Of a stretch of DNA of 61,579 nt, positions 30,211-61,579 are shown piece by piece. The position numbers and the translations under genes are program-made. The stretch comes from Schmidtea nova (taxonomy: Eukaryota). The stretch's first letter is position 1, and the number at the start of each line of letters is the position of its first letter. The notes below the pieces were generated by a model that was not told where the DNA came from, searched no databases, and was given only the letters and a program-made list of their open reading frames with translations. The DNA lies in the NCBI GenBank assembly GCA_044892505.1, contig CM097883.1, positions 404,738,422 to 404,800,000 of the forward strand, read 5' to 3'.

Positions 30211-31190
30211 TCAATTGATTTCATTCGGGGCCACTTTGCATTTGAGGTGGACTTTATCATTGCTGACGCCAGGGGAATTCTTGGGGATTTTATTATAACC
30301 ATAATCATAAACCCAAATTGGATTATTCATGTCATGTGACGGCTTCCCCCATCCGGCATCACCAGGGCGATCTGAATATTTTACTGTTGCATGGTGACAA
30401 ATATTTCCATCTGCCGGATTGACCGCATCAATTGTGACGGCACATTTGAATGGCCATGCCAATTTATCATCGGATTCGCCACGCATCAAATGGAAACCAA
30501 CAGCAATATCACCATTATAACCATGATCATTAATAATAACTATCAAGGACATTTTATATCCGGATGACCCCGAATAAAATGGCTTGCTGTAGATCCATTT
30601 CCCTCTCCTCTGCTGTGATAAATTATCAATCCGCCATTCTAGAAATCCGAAATTTAAACCATCTTGAATTTCCAATTTTGTTTCAATCAGCCGAATTTCA
30701 TTGGCGCATTTCTCCATTTGCAGCTGAAATTGAATGCCAAATTCAAACATTTCAATAAATCAATTTCACCTTTCTATTCACTTCTTCCTGCTGTCGCTGC
30801 TGCTCATACTTTTGATTTAATTCATCCATTTTCTCCTTCAATAGCCTTATTTCTGCCGCCTGGTTCTTCTCTTTTCTTTTCATTTCTTCCATTTTCTGTT
30901 GCAATTTCTAATAATAATAATATCAATCAAATATTTCAATAAATCAATTTCACCTTTCTATCCACTTTTTCCTGCTGCCGCTCCTGCTCATACTTTTGTT
31001 TTAATTCATCCATTTGCTGTTGATGTTTTGTTTCAATCGCCTGAATCTGCTGCCGCACCTGGATTGCATTTACACATAATCAATAGCGATAATCAATAAT
31101 CACATCAGCAGGCAGATAGTGGCCACTAAACCCCCGGTATAAATGGAACGCAGCGCAATTGAACCATTTCAACCAATTTCTCAGCGCCAT
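30211..31190 (-). CDS. RING-less TRAF-like protein, 280 aa (29-aa leader, coiled coil, MATH), 4 exons
   Basis: Exons 31190-31104, 31058-30954, 30907-30770, 30723-30211; phase-0 GT-AG introns of 45, 46 and 46 nt; in-frame stop immediately before the ATG. MATH: LEWRID, YSKPFYSGSSGYKM, HLMRGESDDKLAWPFKCAVTIDAVN. Confidence 0.88.
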
Positions 31191-40600: not shown

Positions 40601-43600
40601 AAGATTATTGAATGAAATCTGAGAATCGAAAGATGTTCAATGAAATAAAATATTTTTAATAGTTTTTTAGTTTTTTTCTTATATAACATTTGGTTAAAAT
40701 TTTATTAGTATAGTTGTTGTTGTGTTAAATAAAAAACATGTTAAGTAAATAATCTTTTTGAATGTATAGATACATAATTTATAGTAAAGCTATTGATGAC
40801 ATATATATGACTATTTAAAGATATGAAGAGGTAAAATAATTAATATCATATTTCAGACAATGTTTTTGATCTTGCGATGAAATTATTAAATATTCAAAAG
40901 CTTGAATATATGTTATGATGGATATGTTTCTTAGGATATCTTGCTTGATACTTTGTTTTTAATGTTGAAGTTTTTTTACCATCTGACAAAATCCCCTAAA
41001 TTATTATTTATATCTCAAATGAATTACTTATAAAATTGTAATAGATATATACCAGCTTTTATTACGTTGTGGTACTTTATAAATATTTTACGTTGTGGTA
41101 TTTTTATTTATCCATTTTATTTATTTTTTTTGCTCATATTTTACTATTCATTACAAAAATTTTACAGGGTACTTAACAAAATATTTGAGGATAACCAAAA
41201 ATTTTTTTATTGATTTATTACAATTTTTATTATTTGATTTCCTTATTAATAGGTGGTAGCTCCATCTCTTCTCCATTGACTATAACCTTCTTCTTTCTGT
41301 TTGCGTTTCCTTTTCTTTGCATATTTTCCTTTTCAACACCTTTTTAATTCTCAATTTATTGCTTTTTATGATATTTAGCTCCTCTTCCAATATTGCTTCT
41401 GCTTTTTGAACAGGTAGTCTTAATTGCCTCCACCGTATGAAATTCTTGCTCGATGATCTGGATTTCAGATCACCTTTTTTCTTTCGGCTTATCCGATGTT
41501 CTACTTGTAGTTAATATTTTCCTTTTCTTATAATCATTTAGTGAGCAACATACTCCACATCATCTTGCCATTGGCTTTCAACAGCTAAATAAATTATCCG
41601 TACTGTTTCTATGTCATCCAAGGCCGAGTGACTTCCTTTTCTATTTATTTCTTTTTATTTCCATTTTTTTCAAATTCCCATTGACCGTCTTCTTCGTCAT
41701 GACGATTTTCCCCAGGCCATTTTATTTATTTCTTTATAATTTAGTTCTTTAGGTATCCTCAACAATACTATCGATTTTCCAGGATTTTAAAAAAAGCAAG
41801 AAACATGCATTCAAAAATGTGTTTTACTTGTTATTTGATTCTAAAATAAATTGATCGCATGTCATTGTAGCATTCATGTATATTAAACAAATATTAGATA
41901 ATTCAGGTTCAAATAACTATTTTCATTGGTCAGTACATGTATATTAATTGTATTTATATTATTATTATTGTTTAAGATTATTCAAAGTAAAATATACTCC
42001 TAGGTTCAAGAAAACGGAGAATGGCAAAAATTAATAGAATTGACTGAAAATAATATAATTTGGACATTATTTAAAATCACCGGGCCGTAAAAGGATTCAG
42101 TGCCTGATTATCGGAACCTTAGTTCATTCCGTGAGTCATTACTTGATATATAAAACGCTGTTGCAGTTCACTTCGTAAAAATATACTGTTCTATCTAGTA
42201 AATTAGATTGTAAAATCTGGAACCCAAAGTTTTTTCATTATGCAATCTTTATTCGTTATTGTCAGTAAATGGATGCGACCTCGCCTCTATACAAATAGTT
42301 TGAATGTGCGATTCATCTTTATAAAAGATGACCAGACAGATCGATAAGGGTAAACCGCGACGTTGCTGGTTTCATACACATTTCCTAATTTTAAGGAGTT
42401 ATGTACGACTTTTTCGGCAGACTTCATATAAAGAATATATCCCACATAGTTGCAAAATAATACATTAAATAAAATGAATCTACCCTCAGGTATTGTAGAA
42501 AGATATTATCAACACTTTTCAATGACATCAATGAAGCATATCATGGACATGGCAACTGAAAAAAGGTTTTTTAATTCTCCTTAGAATGGGAAAACATGAT
42601 GCCAGTTCCTTTATCATCAATATCTGGTTTGTTGGGAAACAAGTGGTTTTTACAAAGATTAAAATTTGAAACCTGATTTCGTTTTCATAAAAGGCAACGA
42701 TTGAGTTGTTGTTGAAAATGGTGAACACTATCATGGAAAGCAATCTTGCCAATAGAAAATAGAAGTGTGGACGGGGGAGCAAAGGAAATAATCGATGAGT
42801 CATAACCTATCAAAATAGAATAACCATTGTTAACGCTCACACGATGAGTCATTAAAAATTATTTTAAGTGGTTCTCGCAATGTTGCTTTTTCATATTGGA
42901 GACACTGCATCTTTTGGATCTACTTTATAGCCTTGAACAGATAGATAAATGAATTTTCATTATTAATAAAGATTTTTATTAGCTTTTTTATAGGAAATTG
43001 CAATGTTTTTAATTATGCGATGAATGATTCAGATACGATAAATGATTCCGCGATGATATATTCCGCGATGAATAGAAATAATCAAATAGAAATAAGATTT
43101 TGTAAATAGAAATATTTTGATAATAATTTCATTAAAATATATATTATATTGTAAAATATAGGAAACATAATGATACTCATAATGACACTTGTAATAAATT
43201 TTTGATAATAATAATTTTTTATAAAAGTTAAATCAATAGCTTATAACATTATTTTGTTAAAGATAATTTTAATAGATTATAATATTAATGATTAAAGCAT
43301 TTTTTATTTTATTTTTTATAACTATATAGTGTTGGGACAAAACTGCAAACTGTTTAAATTTCAGCATTTTAAATGTCATATTTATCAAGTAATTAAATTT
43401 TTTTGCTCCCATACCCTCTGACATCCGTTCAGGCCTAGTGCCAAACGGACGAAAGTAGCCTGAGCGGATCGCAGGTTCGATTTGTAATCGATCAGTCCAT
43501 TTTACATAATCAAGTTGAAAATAGAAAATGAAAGATTATTGAATGAAATCTGAGAATCGAAAGATGTTCAATGAAATAAAATATTTTTAATAGTTTTTTA

Positions 43601-46600
43601 GTTTTTTTCTTATATAACATTTGGTTAAAATTTTATTAGTATAGTTGTTGTTGTGTTAAATAAAAAACATGTTAAGTAAATAATCTTTTTGAATGTATAG
43701 ATACATAATTTATAGTAAAGCTATTGATGACATATATATGACTATTTAAAGATATGAAGAGGTAAAATAATTAATATCATATTTCAGACAATGTTTTTGA
43801 TCTTGCGATGAAATTATTAAATATTCAAAAGCTTGAATATATGTTATGATGGATATGTTTCTTAGGATATCTTGCTTGATACTTTGTTTTTAATGTTGAA
43901 GTTTTTTTTACCATCTGACAAAATCCCCTAAATTATTATTTATATCTCAAATGAATTACTTATAAAATTGTAATAGATATATACCAGCTTTTATTACGTT
44001 GTGGTACTTTATAAATATTTTACGTTGTGGTATTTTTATTTATCCATTTTATTTATTTTTTTTGCTCATATTTTACTATTCATTACAAAAATTTTACAGG
44101 GTACTTAACAAAATATTTGAGGATAACCAAAAATTTTTTTATTGATTTATTACAATTTTTATTATTTGATTTCCTTATTAATAGGTGGTAGCTCCATCTC
44201 TTCTCCATTGACTATAACCTTCTTCTTTCTGTTTGCGTTTCCTTTTCTTTGCATATTTTCCTTTTCAACACCTTTTTAATTCTCAATTTATTGCTTTTTA
44301 TGATATTTAGCTCCTCTTCCAATATTGCTTCTGCTTTTTGAACAGGTAGTCTTAATTGCCTCCACCGTATGAAATTCTTGCTCGATGATCTGGATTTCAG
44401 ATCACCTTTTTTCTTTCGGCTTATCCGATGTTCTACTTGTAGTTAATATTTTCCTTTTCTTATAATCATTTAGTGAGCAACATACTCCACATCATCTTGC
44501 CATTGGCTTTCAACAGCTAAATAAATTATCCGTACTGTTTCTATGTCATCCAAGGCCGAGTGACTTCCTTTTCTATTTATTTCTTTTTATTTCCATTTTT
44601 TTCAAATTCCCATTGACCGTCTTCTTCGTCATGACGATTTTCCCCAGGCCATTTTATTTATTTCTTTATAATTTAGTTCTTTAGGTATCCTCAACAATAC
44701 TATCGATTTTCCAGGATTTTAAAAAAAGCAAGAAACATGCATTCAAAAATGTGTTTTACTTGTTATTTGATTCTAAAATAAATTGATCGCATGTCATTGT
44801 AGCATTCATGTATATTAAACAAATATTAGATAATTCAGGTTCAAATAACTATTTTCATTGGTCAGTACATGTATATTAATTGTATTTATATTATTATTAT
44901 TGTTTAAGATTATTCAAAGTAAAATATACTCCTAGGTTCAAGAAAACGGAGAATGGCAAAAATTAATAGAATTGACTGAAAATAATATAATTTGGACATT
45001 ATTTAAAATCACCGGGCCGTAAAAGGATTCAGTGCCTGATTATCGGAACCTTAGTTCATTCCGTGAGTCATTACTTGATATATAAAACGCTGTTGCAGTT
45101 CACTTCGTAAAAATATACTGTTCTATCTAGTAAATTAGATTGTAAAATCTGGAACCCAAAGTTTTTTCATTATGCAATCTTTATTCGTTATTGTCAGTAA
45201 ATGGATGCGACCTCGCCTCTATACAAATAGTTTGAATGTGCGATTCATCTTTATAAAAGATGACCAGACAGATCGATAAGGGTAAACCGCGACGTTGCTG
45301 GTTTCATACACATTTCCTAATTTTAAGGAGTTATGTACGACTTTTTCGGCAGACTTCATATAAAGAATATATCCCACATAGTTGCAAAATAATACATTAA
45401 ATAAAATGAATCTACCCTCAGGTATTGTAGAAAGATATTATCAACACTTTTCAATGACATCAATGAAGCATATCATGGACATGGCAACTGAAAAAAGGTT
45501 TTTTAATTCTCCTTAGAATGGGAAAACATGATGCCAGTTCCTTTATCATCAATATCTGGTTTGTTGGGAAACAAGTGGTTTTTACAAAGATTAAAATTTG
45601 AAACCTGATTTCGTTTTCATAAAAGGCAACGATTGAGTTGTTGTTGAAAATGGTGAACACTATCATGGAAAGCAATCTTGCCAATAGAAAATAGAAGTGT
45701 GGACGGGGGAGCAAAGGAAATAATCGATGAGTCATAACCTATCAAAATAGAATAACCATTGTTAACGCTCACACGATGAGTCATTAAAAATTATTTTAAG
45801 TGGTTCTCGCAATGTTGCTTTTTCATATTGGAGACACTGCATCTTTTGGATCTACTTTATAGCCTTGAACAGATAGATAAATGAATTTTCATTATTAATA
45901 AAGATTTTTATTAGCTTTTTTATAGGAAATTGCAATGTTTTTAATTATGCGATGAATGATTCAGATACGATAAATGATTCCGCGATGATATATTCCGCGA
46001 TGAATAGAAATAATCAAATAGAAATAAGATTTTGTAAATAGAAATATTTTGATAATAATTTCATTAAAATATATATTATATTGTAAAATATAGGAAACAT
46101 AATGATACTCATAATGACACTTGTAATAAATTTTTGATAATAATAATTTTTTATAAAAGTTAAATCAATAGCTTATAACATTATTTTGTTAAAGATAATT
46201 TTAATAGATTATAATATTAATGATTAAAGCATTTTTTATTTTATTTTTTATAACTATATAGTGTTGGGACAAAACTGCAAACTGTTTAAATTTCAGCATT
46301 TTAAATGTCATATTTATCAAGTAATTAAATTTTTTTGCTCCCATACCCTCTGACATCCGTTCAGGCCTAGTGCCAAACGGACGAAAGTAGCCTGAGCGGA
46401 TCGCAGGTTCGATTTGTAATCGATCAGTCCATTTTACATAATCAAGTTGAAAATAGAAAATGAAAGATTATTGAATGAAATCTGAGAATCGAAAGATGTT
46501 CAATGAAATAAAATATTTTTAATAGTTTTTTAGTTTTTTTCTTATATAACATTTGGTTAAAATTTTATTAGTATAGTTGTTGTTGTGTTAAATAAAAAAC

Positions 46601-49367
46601 ATGTTAAGTAAATAATCTTTTTGAATGTATAGATACATAATTTATAGTAAAGCTATTGATGACATATATATGACTATTTAAAGATATGAAGAGGTAAAAT
46701 AATTAATATCATATTTCAGACAATGTTTTTGATCTTGCGATGAAATTATTAAATATTCAAAAGCTTGAATATATGTTATGATGGATATGTTTCTTAGGAT
46801 ATCTTGCTTGATACTTTGTTTTTAATGTTGAAGTTTTTTTTACCATCTGACAAAATCCCCTAAATTATTATTTATATCTCAAATGAATTACTTATAAAAT
46901 TGTAATAGATATATACCAGCTTTTATTACGTTGTGGTACTTTATAAATATTTTACGTTGTGGTATTTTTATTTATCCATTTTATTTATTTTTTTTGCTCA
47001 TATTTTACTATTCATTACAAAAATTTTACAGGGTACTTAACAAAATATTTGAGGATAACCAAAAATTTTTTTATTGATTTATTACAATTTTTATTATTTG
47101 ATTTCCTTATTAATAGGTGGTAGCTCCATCTCTTCTCCATTGACTATAACCTTCTTCTTTCTGTTTGCGTTTCCTTTTCTTTGCATATTTTCCTTTTCAA
47201 CACCTTTTTAATTCTCAATTTATTGCTTTTTATGATATTTAGCTCCTCTTCCAATATTGCTTCTGCTTTTTGAACAGGTAGTCTTAATTGCCTCCACCGT
47301 ATGAAATTCTTGCTCGATGATCTGGATTTCAGATCACCTTTTTTCTTTCGGCTTATCCGATGTTCTACTTGTAGTTAATATTTTCCTTTTCTTATAATCA
47401 TTTAGTGAGCAACATACTCCACATCATCTTGCCATTGGCTTTCAACAGCTAAATAAATTATCCGTACTGTTTCTATGTCATCCAAGGCCGAGTGACTTCC
47501 TTTTCTATTTATTTCTTTTTATTTCCATTTTTTTCAAATTCCCATTGACCGTCTTCTTCGTCATGACGATTTTCCCCAGGCCATTTTATTTATTTCTTTA
47601 TAATTTAGTTCTTTAGGTATCCTCAACAATACTATCGATTTTCCAGGATTTTAAAAAAAGCAAGAAACATGCATTCAAAAATGTGTTTTACTTGTTATTT
47701 GATTCTAAAATAAATTGATCGCATGTCATTGTAGCATTCATGTATATTAAACAAATATTAGATAATTCAGGTTCAAATAACTATTTTCATTGGTCAGTAC
47801 ATGTATATTAATTGTATTTATATTATTATTATTGTTTAAGATTATTCAAAGTAAAATATACTCCTAGGTTCAAGAAAACGGAGAATGGCAAAAATTAATA
47901 GAATTGACTGAAAATAATATAATTTGGACATTATTTAAAATCACCGGGCCGTAAAAGGATTCAGTGCCTGATTATCGGAACCTTAGTTCATTCCGTGAGT
48001 CATTACTTGATATATAAAACGCTGTTGCAGTTCACTTCGTAAAAATATACTGTTCTATCTAGTAAATTAGATTGTAAAATCTGGAACCCAAAGTTTTTTC
48101 ATTATGCAATCTTTATTCGTTATTGTCAGTAAATGGATGCGACCTCGCCTCTATACAAATAGTTTGAATGTGCGATTCATCTTTATAAAAGATGACCAGA
48201 CAGATCGATAAGGGTAAACCGCGACGTTGCTGGTTTCATACACATTTCCTAATTTTAAGGAGTTATGTACGACTTTTTCGGCAGACTTCATATAAAGAAT
48301 ATATCCCACATAGTTGCAAAATAATACATTAAATAAAATGAATCTACCCTCAGGTATTGTAGAAAGATATTATCAACACTTTTCAATGACATCAATGAAG
48401 CATATCATGGACATGGCAACTGAAAAAAGGTTTTTTAATTCTCCTTAGAATGGGAAAACATGATGCCAGTTCCTTTATCATCAATATCTGGTTTGTTGGG
48501 AAACAAGTGGTTTTTACAAAGATTAAAATTTGAAACCTGATTTCGTTTTCATAAAAGGCAACGATTGAGTTGTTGTTGAAAATGGTGAACACTATCATGG
48601 AAAGCAATCTTGCCAATAGAAAATAGAAGTGTGGACGGGGGAGCAAAGGAAATAATCGATGAGTCATAACCTATCAAAATAGAATAACCATTGTTAACGC
48701 TCACACGATGAGTCATTAAAAATTATTTTAAGTGGTTCTCGCAATGTTGCTTTTTCATATTGGAGACACTGCATCTTTTGGATCTACTTTATAGCCTTGA
48801 ACAGATAGATAAATGAATTTTCATTATTAATAAAGATTTTTATTAGCTTTTTTATAGGAAATTGCAATGTTTTTAATTATGCGATGAATGATTCAGATAC
48901 GATAAATGATTCCGCGATGATATATTCCGCGATGAATAGAAATAATCAAATAGAAATAAGATTTTGTAAATAGAAATATTTTGATAATAATTTCATTAAA
49001 ATATATATTATATTGTAAAATATAGGAAACATAATGATACTCATAATGACACTTGTAATAAATTTTTGATAATAATAATTTTTTATAAAAGTTAAATCAA
49101 TAGCTTATAACATTATTTTGTTAAAGATAATTTTAATAGATTATAATATTAATGATTAAAGCATTTTTTATTTTATTTTTTATAACTATATAGTGTTGGG
49201 ACAAAACTGCAAACTGTTTAAATTTCAGCATTTTAAATGTCATATTTATCAAGTAATTAAATTTTTTTGCTCCCATACCCTCTGACATCCGTTCAGGCCT
49301 AGTGCCAAACGGACGAAAGTAGCCTGAGCGGATCGCAGGTTCGATTTGTAATCGATCAGTCCATTTT
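37643..49367. repeat. Four head-to-tail copies of a ~2932-bp unit
   Basis: Units start at 37643, 40575, 43506 and 46438; only difference noticed is a 7-T versus 8-T run in copy 2; unit is a mosaic of decayed TE fragments. Confidence 0.97.
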
Positions 49368-49445
49368 TCCGCCTCAAGGTGACGCCCAAACATCCATGCT
49401 CATTTCATCCCAACTGGGGAACAGAGGCTTGGTCAAGGGCAAGGT
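49296..49445 (+). mobile_element. Possible tRNA-derived SINE; its head forms the end of each tandem unit
   Basis: A-box-like GGCCTAGTGCCAA and B-box/T-arm-like GATCGCAGGTTCGATT (49338-49346); body continues only after the last unit. Confidence 0.4.
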
Positions 49446-51454
49446 TTTATATTAATGATCATCAATTTATATTAATGTATTTTATCTGAACTATATTTTA
49501 CAATTAAAAACTGAATACCAACGTTAATTCATCTATCAATGACTTTTCAACCATAAAATGTATCAGCACAAAAATATCCAGCTCGTTATTCGCCTTCGCT
49601 CTCATAAACAACCTTTTATTTCATCAGATCTTGTAAGCCAAATGGAGATAGAATTTTATGAAATTAGTTAAAACAGATGCTCAACGATCAATATAATCAT
49701 TTAGATCATGATCGAAGATGTGAAAAATTATTGAGTTATTAAAATCAAATTCAAAAATTATAAAATTACAAAGTTTTTACAAAAATAACAGCTCAATGAT
49801 AATTAGAAATGTTTTGAACATGTGAATGAAAGTTGATTCCATCTATTTGAACTTCATTACATCGAAAATTTTTTATTAAAATTTATTGAGAATTTTATTA
49901 TATTATAAAAAATATAAAAATTTATTTAGAATTTTATTATTTTGATGGTGAAAATCTTATCGAAAATTTATATTATGATGAGTTTGATTTATTTTAAAAT
50001 TTGGATTTTAGTGTAAAAAAATTTATTTAGAATTTTATTATTTCATTTAACGTAAAAAGAAAAAATTTTTATTTAGGATTTATTTATTTTTGTGAAAATT
50101 TAGTTTCTAATTGTTACCAAACTGGTATAGGAACTAGAAAATAAAAATTTTATCATAAAATAAATTCAAATTTTAGTCATTCCTCATTTCAGTCAATAAG
50201 ATCTCCTATACTAGACACTACAATAAACAACACACCCACTTACCAACATATACAACGTGATTTCATCTATCAGTATCCACTAGCATCGTACATCCAGACA
50301 ATCCCCACAAGTATTCATACAATCACAGCCAATGTTTATCGCCTATTGCATTAGCATCATTTCCAACATAGAAACACATAAAATCACATAAAATCATAAC
50401 AATAAGGCACTCATTTCAAACTTACAATAATATATACACCCATTTGCGATCGTCACAATGATAAGAAAATAATCTTTTAAGAAGTATGAATGATCTAACG
50501 AGTCATCATTCAGACGGTTACGCAGCTTAATACAGAAATTTGCTGTTGAAGAAAATGCTCTTTATGATTCAACGCCTGATGGTCTTATTGTCAACAAATG
50601 TTCATACACAAGAGTTAACAAAGAACCTCGGAAACCGATATCAATAAACATTGTAAGTTCTCGTTTTAATGATTCCATTCTATTTTTATTTATTTTTAAA
50701 TTTACAAATATTTTTAAAAATAGTGTGCAAATGTTTATTTTTTAGATTGCAAAATATAGTTAGCAAAAATCAATTTTATAGTATGCAAAAACCTTTTTTT
50801 TAATTAGCAAATATTATTATGTGCAAAATGGAATTATTTAGTTTTAATTTAATTAGGAGCCGTCATCCAGCTCGAGAATTCATATTTTTCACCAGCCACT
50901 TAGATAAGTTGGCTAGGACACAAAAGGCGAAGAATTTTCAACTAGAAAACGATGTCACTCGTATTGAGCTAAGAAATTGATATCAAGGAATTGATACTAC
51001 CATTTACGCTGTCCTAATCGTACCCTACGCCACTTAATATTTAAGGCTCAGTTACAACATCAAGAGTAAGAAACGAAAAAGAATCAGTTCGTAAAAGCGG
51101 CAAAGAAAAAATCCCGAAAATATAAAGGATCTGTAATGTAAACAATATTATTTCATGGTGTCGACTTCTCTTAATTTTTTTGTTGAATATAGTGGTTCGC
51201 CGCGTGCAACTGCGATTGATTTCCAATTCAATAGCCTCATCAATTGAAAATTCTTTATTTTTACGAAGGCAAATAGTTCCTAACAATTCGCAGGAGTCAC
51301 ACAAGCGAGCCTCTATCTGTAAACACTTCTAATCTCTTAGTTTATGTTATACAATGCTTCATAAATTTTTTTTTCTCATTTTCAAAACCAAAAAGCAAAC
51401 AAGAAAACAACAATCCAAAAATCAATAATTCGAAAAAATCTACAAATCTACAAA

Positions 51455-51929
51455 TCTACTTGGATCGGTTTTGAAAAACAGTGGCTTATCAATTTCCTTA
51501 TCATATGACAATGCGATCATTGAACATCCTAATGTCCTCATTTCAGCTGATTGAGTGTACAATTGATTATTATCGGCAATACATCGACAAATCATGTCAC
51601 AGGACATTTCGTATCCATTTTTATATTTAAATCGTGCAGCTTCCATTTGTGCACGGCATACTTGCGATCTGCAATCAGGAATCATAACAGGTCATAACGC
51701 AACCTGTACTTTCAGTTATATTAAATAATCTTGTAGCTGAAGTCTTTTCAATCATTTTATCTGGAACTTTTCTTTGTGTAGCAACTACGCCACAATCATT
51801 ACCTCTAACACCAACAGAAAGTAATCCATCTAACGCAATCGCTTTAAATGCATATTCGACTTGAAATAATCTGCTTTCGGGTGAACAAATAGTCATATAA
51901 CGATCAAAAACATTCGAGTCCAATGACAT
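51455..51929 (-). pseudogene. PSMA6: Proteasome subunit alpha type-6 5' fragment
   Basis: [24 protein letters not shown]...[20 protein letters not shown]...DCRSQV.RAQMEAARFKYKNGYEM...YTQSAEMRTLGCSM...FKTDPS; 1-nt frameshift near 51685; truncated after TDPS. Confidence 0.92.
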
Positions 51930-52130
51930 TTTTTAATTTATTAAATTATAAAGCAAATTTCAAAAATTTAACGAATTTCAAATCTAATTCAAAATGTTCG
52001 CACTTCCTAATCGAAACCGAAACACAAAAATCCGATTTAAAAAACTCCACACAGCTAATTACAAAAATTAGTCCAGATAAACAAAAAAAGACCTCCAAAA
52101 TTCGATAATTTCTCAGCTAAATTCCGTTCT

Positions 52131-52192
52131 CGCGTCTGTGTGCGCATCCCCAAGGAAAAATAAATATCACATAACAACTGTGCACACAGACG
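52131..52192. promoter_or_regulatory. Two GCACACAGACG(CG) motifs upstream of the PSMA6 fragment
   Basis: CGCGTCTGTGTGCGC 52131-52145 and TGTGCACACAGACG 52179-52192, 200-260 bp upstream of the ATG. Confidence 0.5.
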
Positions 52193-52689
52193 TTGTTGTT
52201 TTCTCGATTTGTTAGCAACTCTTCGGGGTCTGTCGTGGATTCCGGGCGACGAGATTGTTTGAAAAATGTTTTCCCACAAGATGATTTGATGTCTTTTTGA
52301 ACGCGCTGTAAAACATGGTTATTATTAGTGTTAATAGTTGCTGCTATTGCTGTATTTCCTGTTATATTTTCTGCTATTGCGTTTGTTTGATCAATTTTCC
52401 GATTAGATATATTCTGTAGCTGATATATTTGTGCACGAAGTTGTAGCAATTGATTGTTATCAAATATTCCTTTATTGGAAACAGGAGGTTGAGAAATTGG
52501 ATTTGTAGATTCAGGTATAATTGGATTTTGAGAGAGATTATTCACAGGAGGTATATAATTGGCGGGATTTATTTGATTTGGAATTTGCATAGTTGCTATT
52601 AGATTGTTAGTATTGTTCGGAGCATTTATAACTTGAATGGATGATGGAATAGGTTGGTTTGGACCGAAACCATTGTTGTTTGCATACAT
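52193..52689 (-). pseudogene. 5' fragment of a Brahma/SMARCA2/4-type SNF2 gene (QLQ domain)
   Basis: N/P/Q-rich N-terminus, FDNNQLLQLRAQI (QLQ; compare FNQNQLHQLRAQI), then DPEELLTNREN (compare DPVEILQERE); homology stops there and the frame runs into the PSMA6 upstream region. Confidence 0.78.
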
Positions 52690-52889
52690 TATTGGATCAA
52701 GTTCTTTTTTTTATTAGTTTAAGGACTTTTTCACACCATATAAGATTTATATAGATTTCGATAAGACCGTCTAACGGCTTCCATGCACGCCCCACATCTC
52801 TCATAGCCATCAAGCCCCGAAATTAATTATTTTAAATATTATTTAATTATTTTTAAAAATATTTTAAAAGCGGGCGCGACCATATAGGG

Positions 52890-53430
52890 CAGGGATATTC
52901 AACTGGCGGCCCGCGGACCAGATCCGGTCCGCCAAAATTTGAAAATGGCCATTTCAATATCTTCGAATATTACACATTTGGATGATATATGCATAAAAAC
53001 GCTCAGCTATTTTTTTACTGTATAATATTTGTCCTTAATGACGTATTAAAATAGATCCGGCTAATATGGGTTTGTTGTTTTTTTTTAATATTTAAGCGAT
53101 ATACATTTCTTGCTTACCCCATAATTTTTGAATGCAGCTTCGCAGCTTCGATCATCCAAATTCCTTGGAAAATGCGTTAAAATTTAAAAATAAATGAAAT
53201 AATCGTAATAAAGTTATTAATTTCAAATGAGTCTGGAAAATTACATAATAATATAAAAATATATGGTAAACATTATAATACTTGGTAATAGAATAACAAT
53301 CACTAAAACATGTTTATATTTTGTTAAAGTGTAATCCGCTACAAAACTAACAACTTTTTAATTGATACGGCCCTCGATTGCCGTTATAAGATAAATTTGG
53401 CCCTTCATAATATTTAGTTGAATACCCATG
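52890..53430. mobile_element. Non-autonomous hAT MITE (541 bp)
   Basis: TIRs CAGGGATATTCAACT / AGTTGAATACCCATG; 8-bp TSD ATATAGGG (52882-52889, 53431-53438). Confidence 0.92.
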
Positions 53431-53497
53431 ATATAGGGTATAATAAAAATGCACATATAAACTGAGAGTCAATAATATGACGAATGCACACTAAATT

Positions 53498-54403
53498 AGT
53501 TGTCTAGAGATTCTCTCGAAAGTACATTTGTATGTAGTTTATTTAGTCGTGGAATCGAATAAAAATTGTGATTACGCGTTGAATTTTCGGAACATTTTTT
53601 GTAGCAGAGCGTGGTTCCCATCGGGGTACGAACTTCATGGAGCTGGAACAATATGGTTCTGGCTATCCAGCCAGAACAAGGTACTATTATGTAGCATTTT
53701 TTATTTTGAATTTTGCGATGATTTTGGTAATTGTAAATTTTTGGCCTTAGCTCAAACATCTTCCCCTCTGCCCTTTGCAATGTTTTGCGGCGGGTTGAGC
53801 TCATTAAGGGACCGGAAAAGATGCTGCTATGGGCCCCAGCATTCTTTTCGAGTAGGAAGGACCTTATCAGAATATAATATTCGAGAGAATCTCTAGACAA
53901 CTGTCGAATCGAACCATGTTACCGTTATCGCCGGAAAATGCATGGATTTTAGCCGGATAGCGTTCATCGTGGCGGCATTTCTTTAATTCCTCATTTAGAT
54001 CTTGCCGGAATGTCAATTTGTTACGGTGATAGCAAAATGATTGATTCAGGTAAACGAATTCATCGATAATATCCCACAGCCAGCGTTCAGGTAGAAATTG
54101 ATTAATTAGTCTCTGCATTTAGAATTAAATTGAACACTGCACAATAACCACAACAAAAATCAAATCCATCACTCAATGAAATTGCATTGGAAACATGATC
54201 ATACAAATGTCGGTAATAGATGTCTTTAATTTTCCGTTAAACAATTCTTTGCACATTCGCATCTGTTTAGCATCATTTAGCCATTGTAAACTTTGTGAAA
54301 TTCCACCAGAGTTCGGTTCCCAATTCATTACAATTTGCACTTTTGATGAAGAAATTGATACAAAATGAAGCATTATTCGCAAACAAACCAAATCACAACT
54401 CAC
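53498..54403 (-). pseudogene. EIF3L: Rearranged eIF3 subunit L fragment
   Basis: Minus strand: LNDAKQMRMCKELF and LPERWLWDIIDEFVYLNQSFC (compare LPNQWLWDIIDEFIYQFQSFS). The downstream part appears flipped on the plus strand (LVVESN; RTRYYYVAFF compare VTTYYYVGFA) between 23-bp inverted repeats. Confidence 0.72.
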
Positions 54404-54527
54404 TCGAGAGTAAATTCAAAAATACGCCAAAAACTCAGTTTAAAAATAAATTATTCAAACAATACTGAAAACCTAAATTCATAATTACAGAAATTCATTT
54501 AAATCCACAATAGCCATCAATACAAAA

Positions 54528-54666
54528 GTGCACACAGACGCTGAATTAAATGAGAGGTCTGAAACGCGCGCACAGACGCGACAACTCTCCAACTTAAATA
54601 CATTACCAATGTGCACACAGACGCGAATAGGCCTATTGAATAGAGAAAATCGCGCACACAGGCGCG
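54528..54666. promoter_or_regulatory. Cluster of four GCACACAGACGCG-type motifs upstream of the EIF3L fragment
   Basis: Copies at 54528-54541, 54565-54580, 54611-54625 and 54651-54666. Confidence 0.55.
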
Positions 54667-55652
54667 TATAAAAAATTACCAAATAAGTTTGCTAAAAAGT
54701 TGGCTGAAACATATGCATTGGAGAAATGTCGTCCATACCACCCAAATTGTTTTGGCTAATAGTACCTAGGCATCAATAGTTCGCTATCTATATATATATC
54801 ATGTCTCGAAAAAACTATAACGACATCATATCTAGTCTACAAATCCTGGTATAACTGTAAAATTGTCAATTCAATACTATCGATTTTCCAGAATTTTTAG
54901 TCTATTTCCGAAGACGATAACAGAAGGTCATCGTTCCCACTTAAAATTTTGTAAAAAGCTGGATGTCATCATCAACAAAACGCCGGATCCGGTCAAGGTT
55001 GAGCAACTCTGGACAATCAGCTTAAAACCAGATCTTTCTAGATTCGAGTTCATCTCATCTCTCGAGCACTGTCGAGGAAAATTACTTCCATCAACTATTG
55101 TTGAAAATTTTCAATCCCAGAGAGTGATCATTCAATGCTCCACTTTCAACACTACGTTGAACTACCATTCACTCCAAGTAGTTCAACGATGATCAAAGGG
55201 AAGCTATAATGCTGCTCCTGACGACACCTGTGAATTTATTTTCAGTGTATCGTCATCATCCCCATGTTCAAGCCGAAGCAGTAGAGAAAAGACCAGCAAC
55301 AGATGTTGACGAATCAAATGACACTTACGATGAAACCAGCACTTCTTCTAAAAGATTAGGAGTTAGTAGAGGAAAGAGACCTAGGAAATGAGACAAATGA
55401 GGGCCGGGAAAGTTTTATTATTGTTATAAAAGTTTTAAATTGGCTTTATCAATAGACTATAAAAAAGGTGCCACTTTAGGTCGTGATGAGGTAACACTAG
55501 CAGAATTAGGCAAATAAGACCTAGGACCATCTCAAGAGGAATGTGAGTCCAGTGTTAAAAAAAAGTGAAGCTTTGGGATATAATGTCCTCGAAACTTCAT
55601 TCTCTAATTCCGCATCTGGATTTCTTCCTAGAGAACATGGCGGAGAAACACT

Positions 55653-57158
55653 TTAAAGGCAAATAGTTCCTAACAATGCGCAATGCTTCCCAGGAGTCAC
55701 ACAAGCAAGCTTTGATGAACCGGAAACCACACCAAAGTATTCTGCTTTTTGGTGCAGTTGCCGATTCATCAATTTTAGTTTTATTTCCTCGCTTTTAATC
55801 TTACATAATCTTATAAATAAATTTAATAATACTTTTGTTTTGGAATGTTTATAGGTTGTATTCAGTTTACGGAAATTTGTTACCATACACTCAGTCATGC
55901 CAAATAGCAACGAAAGAAGAATTCCAGGCCGAACGAAAGATCGATCGAAATCATCGGGTAATCCCCCAAGAAGGATCTCATAAGGAAGTGTTCCACTGAC
56001 GGCTTGCTTATTAGAAAATGCTTGTCCAATAACTCGGATTGTATAGATATAATTGTCAGAAAATGTAATATTTATCGGATAACCAGTTTCTATATAAATC
56101 TCAATTGTATCATCTTTCTTTATTAATTGATTGAAAGACACATTGAAAAAGCTGTAAAATTTAGCAATAAGATTGAAAGCATAACACCAAGTTTTGGAAA
56201 TGTTTGTGAAAATATAAAACATGCAATTTACCAAAATTTCATGAATTAAAATAAAATGAGGTCTCAAAGATTGGTTAACCATATAAAAATGATCCACAAA
56301 TTGATTTGGTAGTACAATAACTCGGATTGTATAGATATAATTGTCAGAAAATGTAATATTTATCGGATAACCAGTTTCTATATAAATCTCAATTGTATCA
56401 TCTTTCTTTATTAATTGATTGAAAGACACATTGAAAAAGCTGTAAAATTTAGCAATAAGATTGAAAGCATAACACCAAGTTTTGGAAATGTTTGTGAAAA
56501 TATAAAACATGCAATTTACCAAAATTTCATGAATTAAAATAAAATGAGGTCTCAAAGATTGGTTAACCATATAAAAATGATCCACAAATTGATTTGGTAG
56601 TACAGTACATACTCTAAATACATTCACTTTTGGACCTTGATAGGATATCAATTGACAGTAAAATTGCAATTTTCTTGAAACGAATAAGTTCATCATATAA
56701 TAGTTAGCGATAATTACACTTTCTTCCATTTGATTGTATAGCATGATAAACCATTTTCCTATTACTAAACTTTCATCAGAATCTTTCCACTTTACCGGAT
56801 AAAAATAATTAAAATTAGACTGATGAAATTCGTGAAACACTCCTAAGTCATACGATATAATATGCAATTTAATGAATGACAAAATGCGTGGGAAATTAAT
56901 TTTAGAATTCTGAACCAAAACTTCATTTGTGAAGATATTGTATGCACATGGTGAGGAGCAATTTATTTGAATACTTTTAAATAGTTCTCCCGATTTTGGA
57001 ATAGTTATATCCAAATGTTTTTTAAAATAAAATCCTTGCTCATTAAAGCTAACTAAGCAGCGACATGCAATACTTGATTTCACGCAGAACGTGCGTGCCT
57101 TCAAAAACCTTCCTCTGACATTAAAGTGATATGATATATAGTCCATTTTATCAATCAT
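55653..57158 (-). CDS. Orphan intronless 501-aa ORF with an exact 96-aa tandem duplication
   Basis: 1506-nt open frame; 288-bp repeat at 56027-56314 and 56315-56602; the last ~18 codons run into a repeated flank shared with 51260-51310. Confidence 0.6.
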   Translation of the reverse strand: MIDKMDYISYHFNVRGRFLKARTFCVKSSIACRCLVSFNEQGFYFKKHLDITIPKSGELFKSIQINCSSPCAYNIFTNEVLVQNSKINFPRILSFIKLHIISYDLGVFHEFHQSNFNYFYPVKWKDSDESLVIGKWFIMLYNQMEESVIIANYYMMNLFVSRKLQFYCQLISYQGPKVNVFRVCTVLPNQFVDHFYMVNQSLRPHFILIHEILVNCMFYIFTNISKTWCYAFNLIAKFYSFFNVSFNQLIKKDDTIEIYIETGYPINITFSDNYIYTIRVIVLPNQFVDHFYMVNQSLRPHFILIHEILVNCMFYIFTNISKTWCYAFNLIAKFYSFFNVSFNQLIKKDDTIEIYIETGYPINITFSDNYIYTIRVIGQAFSNKQAVSGTLPYEILLGGLPDDFDRSFVRPGILLSLLFGMTECMVTNFRKLNTTYKHSKTKVLLNLFIRLCKIKSEEIKLKLMNRQLHQKAEYFGVVSGSSKLACVTPGKHCALLGTICL

Positions 57159-57654
57159 TTATTTTATCAAGCATTTATTTAATTATAAAGAAATCAAATA
57201 CTCCAGTTTCTAGTAAATAATGTATTTATATTTTTTATCATTTATTGCGCGGGTTAACCGCTTAACAACATCTTTTAAATAAATAATAAAATATACAGGA
57301 TTACAAAATTTTTACATATATAATTACATAACATTTTTATAACATTAATTTACATAACTTTAATTAATTACATAACATTAAATATAAACAAGACAAAGCA
57401 TTAAATGATAATCACATCTCTAATCAAAGTATGTAATATTATCATCAGCGAACAGATTAGTTTATTTACTCACAATTAGTAATTATTAATTCAAACAGAC
57501 ACAAATAAACATATACAGTTAAAAATATATATCCAAACGTTACCAACGAGAGTTATTATGGTGTGTAGAATATACAAGGAAACAAGAGATACATCAACAT
57601 AATAATAAAGACTCCAAAACACAATTTGATAGATTGGTGTGACCACAGAACATT

Positions 57655-57860
57655 ACACAAGCCTCTCTGTAAACACTTCTAATCTCTTAGTTTATGTTAT
57701 ACAATGCTTCATAAATTTTTTTCTCCTTTTCAAAGTCTCTTTTTCAAGAAAACAACAATCCAAAAATCAATAATTCGAAGCAACAACCATATTTTCACTA
57801 TTTTCAAAAAACTAAGAAGCAAGCAAGAACACAACAATCCAAAAATCAATAATTCGAAGC
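57655..57860. repeat. Direct repeat of 51300-51430
   Basis: gcctct(at)ctgtaaacacttctaatctcttagtttatgttatacaatgcttcataaa...aagaaaacaacaatccaaaaatcaataattcgaa shared. Confidence 0.85.
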
Positions 57861-58494
57861 AACAACGACATTGGACTTGAATAAATGTTTACTTATTTTT
57901 TAATTTTATTGTTTTATTTCAGTAGCTAAAAATGTCAAATAATTTAAACCACTGAACCCATCAATGCGTTTCAAATTCTTTTGTTAGCTAAAATGAAAAA
58001 AAGGATTATGTCTTTTTTCAAAAAAACGAAGGGTGCGAGAAATAAACGAGGCTCAGATTCGAAATAAGCGGCATCGAATGATCACGGGGCACGTGATAAG
58101 TTTTTTAAATATTTTTAAAATTTAAAAATTGTTGGACTGAGTTATCAAGTATATATTAGCGTTGATAATTCTAATATTCTCATGCAGCGAGTGAGGGAAA
58201 TTCTTTACGTCACCAATGAAAACCGATAAATTTCCTTAATATGTTTATAACGCGGAATGTTGTCTGGATTTTTGAATGCTTCAGTTTTGATTGAAGTCAC
58301 AAGACTTTCAGCTCCATGACTTTGGAGGCTCAGTTGATATTTAGAGGCAGTGTGTGGTTCAAAGTAGACAATTTCATAAATGAAGTCAATGTAGAGTCTC
58401 CTTTAGAAATCAAAGACTTTTACGTTCATATTAGAGCTATTAAGCCCACATTGAAAACGTATTCTACCCAGAAGGAGGATTTCAGACGAGTCTT

Positions 58495-58552
<58 letters not shown>

Positions 58553-59177
58553 GCTGACAATGATTGAATCACTTTTAAATGGTAATAGGAGTGGGTGTTG
58601 TAATGTTCTGTTGTCACATCATCTCCATTCCTAATCATTCCTTCTCTCACATCTGTTCCTAATATTCTTGTATCGAAAATACTTTTCAAAAATACCGACT
58701 TTTTTTACATCGTCTACTGATACTCAGCACCCATTTAAATTTGTCAATAATAACCATGGCAACTAATCGCTGAAGTTTTCTAATAATTTCGAAATCGAAC
58801 TTTATTGATTATGAATTGTCTAATCCATTCAATTGGCCTTCCCTTTCAGTTCCATTCAATCAAAGAGCGATTAATAACATGATTGAAAAACATAGACCAA
58901 GAATGATATTTATATATTAATAAATTCTTGAAGAAAATTAGGTAATCTTAATGTGAAAAATCTATTTATTATTCCAACCTACGTGTCTCCGTCAAAGCGA
59001 ATTCTTTGCGCTTCCGTTACGAAGTAGTTCATTTTATACAGTCGCAACAGCAACTTCAATCACCGGAATATCGCAAAGTATTATTCAATTTATTTATTAA
59101 TTTTTACGTGACAAAACTTAAAATTAATGAATCGACAATTGCCCCTAAAATTATTAGCAATGTCGATTCAATAAAGG

Positions 59178-60000
59178 TGTAACCGCAAATTTAGTATAAA
59201 TACGACTCTGAAATCATTAATTCAACTTCGTTCTTACCAGCCAAGTTCACCTATTAAGTAGAACTATGTGCAAATATATTTTAAGTGATACTTTGAAAAT
59301 TAAGTGAGTATTTTCATCTACTGTGAAACAGTAATTGAAAGTTTTATTTTATTTTGGCAGTCCATACATCAGCTCCAGGTTCAAATCACACATGATACTC
59401 GAGAGCCGAATGCGTAGATGTAACCAAATTAAGTATAAATACGACTCTGAAATCATTAATTCACCTTCGTTCTCACCAGCCAAGTTCACCTATTAAGTAG
59501 AACTATGTGCAAATATATTTTAAGTGATGCTTTGAAAATTAAGTCATCATTCTCATCTACTGTGAAATAGTAATTGAAAGTTTTATTTTATTTTGGCAGT
59601 TCATACATCAGCTCCAGGTTCAAATCACACATGATACCCGAGAGCCGAATGTGTAGATGTAACCAAATTAAGTATAAATACGACTCTGAAATCATTAATT
59701 CAACTTCGTTTTTATCAGCCAAGTTCACCTAATAAGCAGAACTATGTGCAAATATATTTTAATTGATGCTTTGAAAATTAAGTGAGTATTTTCATGTACT
59801 GTGAAACATTAATTGAAAGTTTTATTTTATTTTGGCAGTTCATACATCAGCTCCAGGTTCACACCACACATGATACTCGAGAGCCGAATGCGTCGGTGTA
59901 ACCAAAAATTTAGTATAAATAAAACTCGAAAATCATTAATTGAACTTTATGCTTACTAGATAAGTTTACATATTAAGCAGAACTCTACGCAAATATTTTT
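59178..60000. repeat. Tandem repeat, 239-bp unit x ~3.4
   Basis: agtataaatacgactctg recurs at 59193, 59432, 59671 and, degenerate, at 59912; copies are modestly diverged. Confidence 0.93.
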
Positions 60001-61579
60001 GAGTGATATATTCCAAGCAGTGGACATTGTTATTCCGAAGGTTTAGATTTAAAAAAATAAAATAGCCAAAAATGAATGAATTTTATGCCCCTAGGAATGA
60101 TTATAAGATTGCCATTGAAGAACCTTGATAGTACGGATATAAACATTTTCAATTATATTTACGACAAATGCTCTGTTTGTTGGTTTGAGAATTTATACTC
60201 TATTAGAATTAAATTGTAACTTACGAAGAACTTAATAGCATAATGTATATATATAATGTCTGTACACAATTTCAAGAGCATAATGGATTATAATAAATAA
60301 TCAATATAGAAATCCTAAAAATCAGCTTCAAAATATTTGTTTGAATATTAAAAATATTGGCAGTTTTTTGAGTGAATTAATTTTAATATTTTTAATTATG
60401 GAGAATGAAAATATAAACAAAATAATAACTAACATGGCGACCACGACCACGGATCTTATACTCAGGCGGATGTCATCAGATGATCATGTATGTAAAGGTG
60501 GCAATCAAAGATAAATTCACGGATTATTTGTTTTTAAGTGCTACGAAAACATCTCAAAAATGCAACAGATTCTAGTTAACTAGATTACTTTTTAAATCTT
60601 TAGTTGAAGAATATGAAAAGACTGAAGGGAAATAATATAATTGTGAAAAGGAAGCATTAAACTTTGAACAGGAAACAGGCTAAACGGAAATTGTAATCGG
60701 AATGATAGAAAAGTTAACGAATAAGCTTGTTTTCCATCAATGGAATGAAGAAACAATTGAAATAAGTTTGCTAACACAAGGTGTTCGAGATAAAGTGAAA
60801 ACTTGGATCGAAATTATTTGATAATGATGAATTTATTATCTTTCAACAATACATTAGAGAAGCTGTCCGTCATCTCTGTACACAATTTCAAGAGCATACC
60901 AGAAAGAGCGGAAAGATCAATATTTTTGAGCTTAATAAGACATGAAATAAAAGCATTAATATTTTAAAATATTGTCTGGAGGTTTTAAGAAATATTACAA
61001 ACGTGTGAATTGTGACACTAATAATAAACAAAAACAAAATACGATTTGCCAGTCGATCATTACAAAAAAAAATCAAAGGTGAAACAAAAAGATAATTATA
61101 ATATTTATAGTTTTATATTTTAAATTAATATATTTTATTAGGTTTTCATAATTTTTTAAGATGATGATTTTAATATTGAATAATTTTTGTACATAATTAA
61201 ATATTTTTTATTAATTTTTCAATGAATTTTAGAATATATTGTTTGAAATATTTTTATTTTTTCTTGAAAGAGTTTAATAATTTTAACTATTAATTTATTT
61301 TTAACTATTTCAAATCTTTAGTGACTGCCACATATTACTGCCTCATATTATATATATATATATATAAAAACTAAAAAATGATTTTAATAAAAATTTGGAA
61401 AATTAGGAAAAAATTTATAAATAATTATAAATAATTAATTTATAATTTTACACAAATATTAATTTAATTTTTGGGAAATGAAATGATTTTAATTAGAACA
61501 TTTTACCATGAAAATTGGTTTTAAATCATCAAATGATGAAGTAAAATTTAGCAGTATATAAACCGTCATCAAAAACGAC

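What the first reader, a model, noticed from the sequence alone, without database searches (positions are those of the whole stretch)
51040..57860. Co-oriented train of captured housekeeping-gene fragments bracketed by a direct repeat
Seen: 5' fragments of PSMA6, a Brahma/SMARCA gene and EIF3L lie head-to-tail on the minus strand within 3 kb, each truncated, and the Brahma frame is fused directly onto the PSMA6 upstream region. The block lies between two copies of the same sequence (51260-51430 and 55655-55710 plus 57655-57860). The PSMA6 and EIF3L pieces keep upstream motif-rich DNA, which argues for DNA-level capture rather than retrocopying. Established: Helitrons and Pack-MULE/Pack-TIR elements collect co-oriented host fragments. 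Inference: an unrecognised gene-capturing mobile unit, or a repair/rearrangement hotspot. I could not identify its termini.
Basis: partly seen in the sequence, partly recalled or inferred. Interest (0 to 1): 0.78.

Follow-up and report, generated by a model that had tools for sequence, protein, structure and literature searches.

The report
Patchwork of copied gene pieces
This stretch is a real, one-off patchwork of decayed housekeeping-gene copies and transposon scraps, probably stitched together by DNA repair rather than carried by one mobile element; its surprise is that part of the proteasome gene it contains seems to be repeated many times in this animal's genome.

Summary
The three minus-strand pieces are real decayed copies of PSMA6, Brahma and EIF3L, and two keep motif-rich upstream DNA, so DNA-level copying is supported. 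The 'bracket' is not a terminus. The left repeat (51266-51434) sits inside the PSMA6 copy: reads from other copies run on in frame at both of its edges, so it replaced about 22 codons. It looks like a repair filler copied from the low-copy sequence about 4 kb away, which a 1,947-bp insertion with a 5-bp direct repeat later split. No Helitron 3' end, TIR pair or LTR pair bounds the block. At least four transposon-like pieces lie within it. Exact contigs across 4 of 12 junctions have single-copy depth, so the composite exists once. Its parts are repeated: Brahma about 2-5 times, EIF3L about 4-57, the middle of PSMA6 at least about 60 (rough estimates from contig depth). Best reading (0.6): a stepwise template-switch/gap-fill mosaic at TIR-transposon ends, fed by amplified gene-fragment families. 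This is a known kind of process (Pack-TIR gap filling, bat Helitron protogenes). The carrier of the PSMA6 amplification is not identified and is the open lead.

The parts
51151..51268 (-). Probable 3' remainder of the PSMA6 copy, decayed
   Evidence: The loose end behind 51268 (X3, 7 contigs, agreement 0.67) reads ...EKK on the minus strand and runs in frame into window LRKNKEFSIDEAIE; the profile consensus has EKKLKK at that place. Window-only test borderline (274 of 5000 shuffles); the last 24 codons not significant (1218 of 2000).
51266..51434 (-). Left copy of the repeat (A+B): filler inside PSMA6 replacing about 22 codons; 3-nt microhomology at its exit
51435..51447 (-). 13-nt local duplication of the last PSMA6 bases at the filler's entry (templated-insertion-like)
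   Evidence: sequence; other copies continue in frame with PSMA6 at 51448 (X1 6 contigs, X2 8 contigs)
51448..51929 (-). PSMA6 codons 1 to about 160, 1-bp frameshift near 51689; the middle part is high-copy
   Evidence: most other copies lack the extra base (table 4); depth estimates
51930..52203 (-). PSMA6 upstream DNA with 2 GYRCACAGACGY motifs (probable promoter), few copies
52198..52689 (-). Brahma/SMARCA N-terminal piece with a 72-nt in-frame deletion in QLQ; no promoter motif upstream
   Evidence: joint 52424>52426 with 73 letters between in 4 of 4 runs; 8 of 9 listed differences change the residue
52737..52889 (+). End of high-copy repeat X (transposon-like terminus starting CAT)
   Evidence: 41-50 contigs per run with unrelated flanks at 52737 (table 7)
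52890..53430 (.). hAT-like MITE with a perfect 8-bp target-site duplication
   Evidence: the hAT label is recalled, not from a library
53498..53902 (.). Second MITE-like element, perfect 23-bp terminal inverted repeats, no target-site duplication found
   Evidence: high summed depth
53945..54392 (-). EIF3L N-terminal piece with frameshifts and stops; start codon not located
   Evidence: an exact contig covers the 2-nt deletion at 54111
54393..54727 (-). EIF3L upstream DNA with 4 GYRCACAGACGY motifs
54728..54803 (-). Piece of high-copy repeat Y; second copy at 37168-37232; its end weakly resembles the X end in inverted orientation
   Evidence: 20 of 5000 random pairs score as well; no shared target-site duplication
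54804..55655 (.). Mostly single-copy spacer; a 26-nt piece matches the nearby 2.9-kb tandem array
55656..55710 (-). Right copy of the repeat, part A (low-copy)
   Evidence: exact single-depth contigs run through it in 4 of 4 runs
55711..57657 (.). 1,947-bp insertion flanked by a 5-bp direct repeat, with imperfect 30-bp inverted ends; member of a repeat family
   Evidence: 46 of 5000 random pairs, 5 of 5000 shuffles; unique contigs stop at 55735-55740, and depth rises from there
55653..57158 (-). 501-codon ORF (405 without an in-frame 288-bp tandem duplication); no homologue found; its stop lies outside the insertion
   Evidence: negative searches
57658..57872 (-). Right copy of the repeat, part B, with a 79-bp internal duplication

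Best explanation
The block is a single-copy mosaic built in steps by DNA-level copying and joining (gap filling or template switching during break repair) in a transposon-rich region. It is not one bounded mobile element. Shown: the three pieces are decayed duplicates with other copies in the genome; two carry their upstream DNA; TIR-type elements sit between them; the composite is single-copy where tested. Inferred order: (1) copies of PSMA6 and EIF3L with their promoters came to lie beside the transposon ends X and Y; (2) the Brahma 5' piece was copied in between X and the PSMA6 promoter; (3) a break in the PSMA6 copy removed about 22 codons and was patched with about 170 bp from the sequence about 4 kb away, which made the 'bracketing repeat'; (4) two MITEs and a 1,947-bp element inserted, the last one splitting the donor. 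The 5' bias is explained, by inference, by transposon ends and breaks favouring open promoter DNA. The PSMA6 and EIF3L pieces belong to larger amplified fragment families whose carrier is not visible in this window.
For: PSMA6 continues in frame in other copies at both edges of the left repeat (loose ends at 51448 and 51268; profile consensus). The entry junction has a 13-nt local duplication and the exit a 3-nt microhomology. Part A is low-copy, which points to the neighbouring donor. Left and right copies are collinear once the insertion is set aside. Exact contigs at depth 11-17 span 4 of 12 junctions in the laid stretch (table 8). No Helitron end, and the only target-site-bounded TIR pair with GC-containing ends is the MITE. 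Decay: frameshifts absent from most other copies; 8 of 9 Brahma differences change the residue, and at 3 of those 8 the contig has the residue of both relatives. In print: single-copy animal Pack-TIRs arise mostly by gap filling with nearby donors and microhomology (PMC8277862, passages).
Against: 8 of 12 junctions, among them both filler edges and X/Brahma, are not among the 31 records listed (9,994 not shown). The PSMA6 3' remainder is only borderline from the window alone and was missed by the profile search. A 3-nt microhomology has a chance of about 0.07. Three co-oriented 5' pieces also match the 5' bias of bat Helitron capture (PMC4224331 section 13). A joint skipping exactly the Brahma piece has 6-fold depth in 2 of 4 runs, which hints at a multi-copy X-PSMA6 unit. 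The four runs are at most 3 samples of one study and may include the window's own source. Contig depth is not a copy number.
Confidence: 0.6

Rival explanations
1. A TIR transposon (family X, perhaps with Y) loads promoter-bearing gene 5' ends at its terminus and moves them. An X-PSMA6 unit exists in several copies and this copy gained Brahma. X and Y are the eroded inverted ends of a Pack-TIR around EIF3L.
For: Joint 52203>52737 skips exactly the Brahma piece at depth 96 (X2) and 79 (X3), about 6-fold, similar to the 1-11-fold depth of the PSMA6 upstream DNA. Joint 52147>52748 in 3 of 4 runs also puts motif DNA next to the X end. X and Y ends are alike beyond chance (20 of 5000) and face each other around EIF3L. 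PSMA6 and EIF3L pieces are amplified.
Against: Both joints have only 21-22 letters on the short side, which the tool flags as often due to repeats. X and Y share no target-site duplication and diverge after about 25 nt. Brahma and PSMA6 lie outside the X-Y pair. The coding middle of PSMA6 is far more abundant than its upstream DNA, so most copies are not in such a unit.
Confidence: 0.2
2. The train is the interior of an old Helitron or Helentron that captured the pieces by end bypass or filler capture and has since lost its ends.
For: Co-oriented pieces with a 5'/promoter bias and high copy numbers are described for bat Helitrons (PMC4224331 section 13). A 25-bp-arm hairpin lies at 55712-55772.
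Against: No CTRR-T end with a GC-rich hairpin on either strand of 49400-59200 (0, against a mean of 0.6 in 30 shuffles). No Rep/helicase match among the ORFs scanned (26 peptides, 12; not all 65 ORFs were scanned). The elements that can be delimited have inverted ends. Helentron structure was not tested systematically.
Confidence: 0.1
3. The pieces are retrocopies packaged between two LTR-like direct repeats.
For: No intron is seen in the three coding pieces, and a direct repeat is present.
Against: Upstream motif clusters are retained and are contiguous with coding DNA in other copies (records 21, 27). The only gap against the Brahma parent is coding, not an intron. The left repeat is inside PSMA6. 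No TG...CA ends, primer-binding site or polypurine tract were seen by eye (junction print-out; no scan was run).
Confidence: 0.04
4. The block is a misassembly of real genes and repeats.
For: 8 of 12 junctions are not bridged by a listed record; no long reads were available; the exact 288-bp duplication was not tested.
Against: Exact contigs cover 4 junctions and the EIF3L frameshift, and separate, better conserved copies of all three genes exist in the runs.
Confidence: 0.05

Closest known systems
Single-copy Pack-TIRs of animals formed by gap filling (PMC8277862, passages read)
   Same: DNA-level filler next to TIR-element ends, nearby donor, microhomology, single copy.
   Different: No matching pair of TIRs from one family surrounds the cargo; three genes are involved; the demonstrable filler lies inside a gene copy, not inside a transposon.
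Bat Helitron (Helibat) protogenes (PMC4224331, abstract and sections 13 and 15 read)
   Same: Bias to promoters and 5' gene ends; gene pieces amplified to many copies (12,382 copies from 54 genes and 16 non-genic regions there).
   Different: No Helitron ends found here; the composite is single-copy; the most amplified part is mid-coding PSMA6, not the promoter.
Templated insertions of alternative end joining (SD-MMEJ, polymerase theta, MMBIR; seen as search listings only; features otherwise recalled)
   Same: Deletion plus insertion, short local duplication, microhomology, nearby template.
   Different: A 170-bp filler from 4 kb away is longer than typical polymerase-theta inserts (recalled) and fits strand-invasion gap repair better; the pathway cannot be told from sequence.
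Helentron/HINE/DINE-1 (PMC4067079, passages read)
   Same: Short high-copy elements with subterminal inverted repeats and hairpins that sometimes carry gene fragments.
   Different: They make no target-site duplication and sit in TT; the delimited elements here have 8-bp and 5-bp flanking direct repeats.
Terminons and Burro giant retroelements (PMC6431247, passages read)
   Same: Host genes or accessory ORFs inside or between large elements.
   Different: No reverse transcriptase, LTR pair or hammerhead match in the block (Rfam: 3 weak matches, none a ribozyme).

Membership tests
Helitron (canonical) | 3' CTRR preceded by a 16-20 nt hairpin, inserted before T | tested here: not met
   0 sites on both strands of 49400-59200; mean 0.6 in 30 shuffles
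Helitron (canonical) | Shared 5' TC end among copies, A/T empty site | not testable with these tools
   no genome held
Helitron (canonical) | Rep/helicase in the element or its family | tested here: inconclusive
   no Pfam match in the 26 and 12 peptides scanned; non-autonomous copies need none
Helentron/HINE | Subterminal inverted repeats, 3' stem-loop, TT site, no TSD | tested here: inconclusive
   hairpin and imperfect inverted ends in 55711-57657 but a 5-bp flanking repeat; no dedicated scan
Pack-TIR / Pack-MULE (whole block) | Both TIRs of one family flank the cargo | tested here: not met
   repeat ends not inverted; no TIR pair spans the block
Pack-TIR (X-EIF3L-Y only) | TIR pair and TSD | tested here: inconclusive
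   ends alike beyond chance (20 of 5000); no TSD
Pack-TIR / Pack-MULE | Parental copy elsewhere, high identity, DNA-level | tested here: met
   Brahma contigs with 7-8 differences in about 200 nt and 1-3 in 210 nt, carrying the missing 24 codons
LTR-mediated retrocopy | Paired TG...CA LTRs outside the cargo, PBS/PPT, TSD | tested here: not met
   left repeat lies inside PSMA6; ends inspected by eye
LTR-mediated retrocopy | Loss of parental introns | not testable with these tools
   parental exon structure not available; the one gap seen is coding
Gap-fill/templated-insertion mosaic | Filler replacing host sequence, with a nearby donor | tested here: met
Gap-fill/templated-insertion mosaic | Microhomology or local templated bases at junctions | tested here: inconclusive
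   13-nt local duplication and 3-nt microhomology; the latter has chance about 0.07; most donors are unseen
Gap-fill/templated-insertion mosaic | Composite is single-copy | tested here: met
   exact contigs at depth 11-17 across 4 of 12 junctions
hAT MITE (52890-53430) | Short TIR and 8-bp TSD | tested here: met
   the superfamily name is recalled and was not checked against a repeat library

The most novel reading that the evidence does not exclude
This animal has a TIR-type transposon family (X/Y) that lands at housekeeping promoters, loads promoter-bearing 5' gene pieces one after another at its end, and has amplified a proteasome alpha-1 (PSMA6) piece to hundreds or thousands of copies. 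That would be a multi-gene, high-copy Pack-TIR system, whereas a survey of 100 animal genomes found only four multicopy Pack-TIRs. The orphan 405-codon ORF element may be an unclassified mobile family in the same genome.
Probability: 0.2. Interest if true: 0.7.

Novelty: new member of a known kind. Interest (0 to 1): 0.42.

Why it matters
As a single locus it is a clear example of repair-driven shuffling of gene and promoter pieces, which is known. It matters more as a pointer. If part of an essential proteasome gene is really present in tens to thousands of decayed copies, this genome runs gene-fragment amplification on a scale described mainly for plant Pack-MULEs and bat Helitrons. That would affect gene annotation, read mapping and RNAi design for PSMA6 and EIF3L, and it would make the question of how hosts protect parental genes from transposon silencing testable in an invertebrate.

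Tried and rejected
No whole genome is held, so no genome-wide BLAST was possible. No RNA holder listed; this says nothing on expression. The B repeat had 0 exact matches in metagenome contigs; the PSMA6 scan gave 1 distant locus (34%), not used. ORF501: nothing above threshold in Pfam, NCBIfam or PHROGs, 0 of 1.84 billion representatives, no Atlas hit, no viral locus; the single-sequence fold had pLDDT 33, so no fold search was run. Brahma was missed by Pfam and PDB searches before one search found it. The idea that the 73-letter joint in Brahma is a lost intron was rejected because relatives encode those 24 residues. The idea that the left repeat is a deletion derivative of a longer right-hand unit gives the same junction sequence; it was ranked lower because the copy-number step falls at 55711. 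The PSMA6 profile did not detect the 3' remainder among 2,653 peptides, nor did PDB. Rfam gave 3 weak matches, none relevant. Five look-ups in earlier findings returned nothing. Paper searches for amplified proteasome fragments or gene capture in flatworms gave nothing relevant (2 unrelated papers each; 0; general papers only); the library lacks most subscription papers, and no supplements were read, where repeat libraries might list these families.
Full report
Setting. The window is AT-rich eukaryotic DNA (GC 0.19-0.39 per kb) with TRAF-type RING and MATH genes, tandem arrays and transposon relics. No whole genome is held. The closest relatives of its proteins carry no useful names. From recall, the TRAF copies and the Brahma sequence suggest a free-living flatworm; this is a guess and nothing below depends on it.

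The gene pieces are real. PSMA6 starts at the ATG at 51929 and matches Proteasome_A_N and Proteasome and human PSMA6 residues 83-159 at E 1e-20, with a 1-bp frameshift near 51689 that most other copies lack (433 of 573 depth units in run X1). The Brahma piece (52689-52198) hit 2 of 159 candidates, both with QLQ, HSA and SNF2_N domains. It lacks 24 residues of QLQ that both relatives have, and in 4 of 4 runs a contig has 73 letters in place of 1 at exactly that site, so the gap is a coding deletion and not a lost intron. One relative has 24 more residues in front, so the true start is uncertain. EIF3L matches human residues 133-171 and 178-208; the piece further upstream gave no hit. Of 9 listed Brahma differences between window and contigs, 8 change the residue, and at 3 of these the contig has the residue of both relatives; only 40 of 407 difference rows were shown. 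The window copies are therefore decaying duplicates. All three are on the minus strand, which has a chance of 0.25.

Upstream DNA. The motif GYRCACAGACGY occurs 6 times in the window against 0.17 expected (0 of 100 shuffles reach 6), twice upstream of PSMA6 and four times upstream of EIF3L, and not upstream of Brahma. Contigs from other loci show the motif with unrelated spacers (table 5c), as expected of a promoter motif and not of a transposon copy (inference). Diverged contigs join EIF3L 5' DNA to this upstream DNA (record 21).

The repeat is not a bracket. The left copy is A (51266-51310) plus B (51308-51434); on the right A is at 55656-55710 and B at 57660-57858. Loose ends show what other PSMA6 copies do at both edges of the left copy (table 7, translated by hand). 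Before 51448 they continue in frame as AGRRAVAVGGK (6 contigs in X1, 8 in X2). Behind 51268, 7 contigs in X3 read ...EKK (agreement 0.67) and run in frame into the window's LRKNKEFSIDEAIE. The consensus of 15 related proteins reads GFKAVSAGAKEQEAVNFLEKKLKK there. So about 22 codons of PSMA6 were replaced by a 13-nt local duplication plus A+B, with 3 shared bases at the exit. Against this: the profile did not find the 3' remainder among 2,653 peptides, PDB gave no hit, and the targeted test gave 274 of 5000 shuffles as good (208 of 2000 unrestricted; last 24 codons 1218 of 2000). Part A is low-copy: exact contigs of depth 11.5-17.4 run through it in 4 of 4 runs. With the 1,947 bp between A and B set aside, the two copies are collinear. 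That 1,947-bp segment (55711-57657) is flanked by a 5-bp direct repeat (chance about 0.008), has imperfect inverted ends (46 of 5000 random pairs), and begins where the unique contigs stop. I read it as a later insertion into the donor; a deletion in the left copy would give the same junction. Its right end lies outside the stretch laid.

No boundary for one element. A scan for CTRR-T with a GC-rich hairpin found 0 sites on both strands of 49400-59200 (mean 0.6 in 30 shuffles). A TIR+TSD scan gave 22 candidates; by eye, all but the element at 52890-53430 (perfect 8-bp duplication) and nested hits in the 23-bp TIR element were AT-rich or short (no shuffle control). The ends of the repeat are not inverted (4919 of 5000). 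Between Brahma and EIF3L lie the end of repeat X (41-50 contigs per run with unrelated flanks at 52737), that MITE, and a second element with perfect 23-bp inverted ends. Repeat Y lies beyond the EIF3L upstream DNA. X and Y ends face each other and are alike beyond chance (20 of 5000) but share no target duplication.

Copy number. Four runs were laid as contigs on 49900-56300; they are at most 3 samples of one study, their kind is not on record, and they may include the window's source. Uniform cover of non-coding DNA makes DNA runs likely (inference). Of 12 junctions in the stretch, 4 are bridged by exact listed records at depth 11-17 (promoter/Brahma in X3; upstream/Y, Y/spacer, spacer/A); only 31 records were listed and 9,994 were not, so the other 8 are untested. 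Taking those depths as one copy (12.5-15.3; one of the 15 contigs used has 1 difference), mean depth per contig gives a low figure and summed depth a high one: PSMA6 at 51570, 64-88 to 2,583-3,941; at 51886, 5-8 to 124-225; its upstream DNA, 1-4 to 3-11; Brahma, 2-4 to 3-5; EIF3L, 4-12 to 33-57; X, 15-17 to 487-602; ORF501 at 56102, 31-48 from a single contig. The tool warns that such depth is no copy number, and overlapping short contigs inflate the sums; the low figures are the ones to trust. At 51570 in X4 the window's own letter has depth 16 against 59,713 for the other letter. One X2 contig with a 12-nt in-frame deletion has depth 1,076, though only 68-133 in the other runs. The composite thus occurs once where tested, while the middle of PSMA6 belongs to a large, uneven repeat family that is mostly not linked to its promoter.

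A lead for the rival. Joint 52203>52737 skips exactly the Brahma piece (depth 96 in X2, 79 in X3; absent from the list for X1 and X4), and 52147>52748 appears in 3 of 4 runs. Both have 21-22 letters on the short side and may come from repeats. If real, an X-end/PSMA6-promoter unit exists in about 6 copies and Brahma was added here.

The ORF in the insertion. 55653-57158 is open for 501 codons, 405 without an in-frame 288-bp duplication; chance 6e-15. It has no homologue in any library tried and the fold was uninformative. Its stop lies in A, outside the insertion, so the insertion may be a truncated piece of a larger element.

Mechanism and comparison. The best reading (0.6) is stepwise template-switch or gap-fill repair near TIR ends. 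Identity, decay, filler position and single-copy junctions are shown; the order of events, the promoter preference and the repair pathway are inferred. In PMC8277862 (passages), single-copy animal Pack-TIRs show nearby donors (56.9% within 15 kb) and microhomology (67.6%), and only four of 281 were multicopy. In PMC4224331 (abstract, sections 13 and 15), bat Helitrons prefer 5' gene ends and amplified them to thousands of copies. Helentron features come from PMC4067079 (passages), Terminons and Burro from PMC6431247 (passages), and frequent rearrangement near retroelements in planarians from PMC11410931 (passages). End-joining papers were seen as listings only. The block works like gap-fill capture but fails the membership tests for a Helitron, a whole-block Pack-TIR and an LTR element. 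I found no paper on amplified proteasome fragments, in a library that lacks most subscription papers; no supplements were read.

Verdict. The feature is real and partly misread. It is a new member of a known kind, interest 0.42. The open question is what amplified the PSMA6 piece; the most novel reading has probability 0.2 and would rate 0.7.

Noticed in passing
window 55711-57657: Insertion with a 5-bp flanking repeat, imperfect inverted ends, a 25-bp-arm hairpin at one end and an orphan 405-codon ORF; a single contig suggests 31-48 near-identical relatives, so possibly a young unclassified element family.
   Followed up: partly
window 56019-56594: Near-exact 288-bp tandem duplication that keeps the frame (96 codons); not tested against reads, could be real or an assembly echo.
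   Followed up: no
window 50494-50724: Plus-strand ORF piece followed by an intron-like 71 nt, with a few diverged copies in the runs; unidentified. It is opposite in orientation to the train.
   Followed up: partly
window 37643-49370: Four near-identical units of 2,931-2,932 bp in tandem; a 26-nt piece of the unit recurs at 54872-54897, and repeat Y recurs just upstream at 37168-37232.
   Followed up: no
window 5350-6513 and 14246-15556; 20942-22704; 30211-30759: Several TRAF-type (RING, MATH) gene copies; the first two form an inverted pair at 88-97% identity around a decayed retrotransposon-like region (label recalled).
   Followed up: partly
window 11840-12225: Perfect 141-bp inverted repeat with a 5-nt spacer, extended by a perfect 54-bp pair, inside the retrotransposon-like region.
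   Followed up: no
window 59176-60008: Tandem array of a 239-bp unit, 3.4 copies, 90% alike.
   Followed up: no
window 27794-28642: Broken ORFs that resemble a GTF2IRD2/hAT-type transposase (recalled; no Pfam match at E 0.1), a possible partner of the MITE at 52890-53430.
   Followed up: no
window 52132-52193 and 54530-54665: The clustered motif GYRCACAGACGY looks like a lineage-specific housekeeping promoter element; other loci in the runs carry it with different spacers.
   Followed up: partly
window 55182-55391: Single-copy plus-strand frame ending in a basic, nuclear-localisation-like run; no family match.
   Followed up: partly
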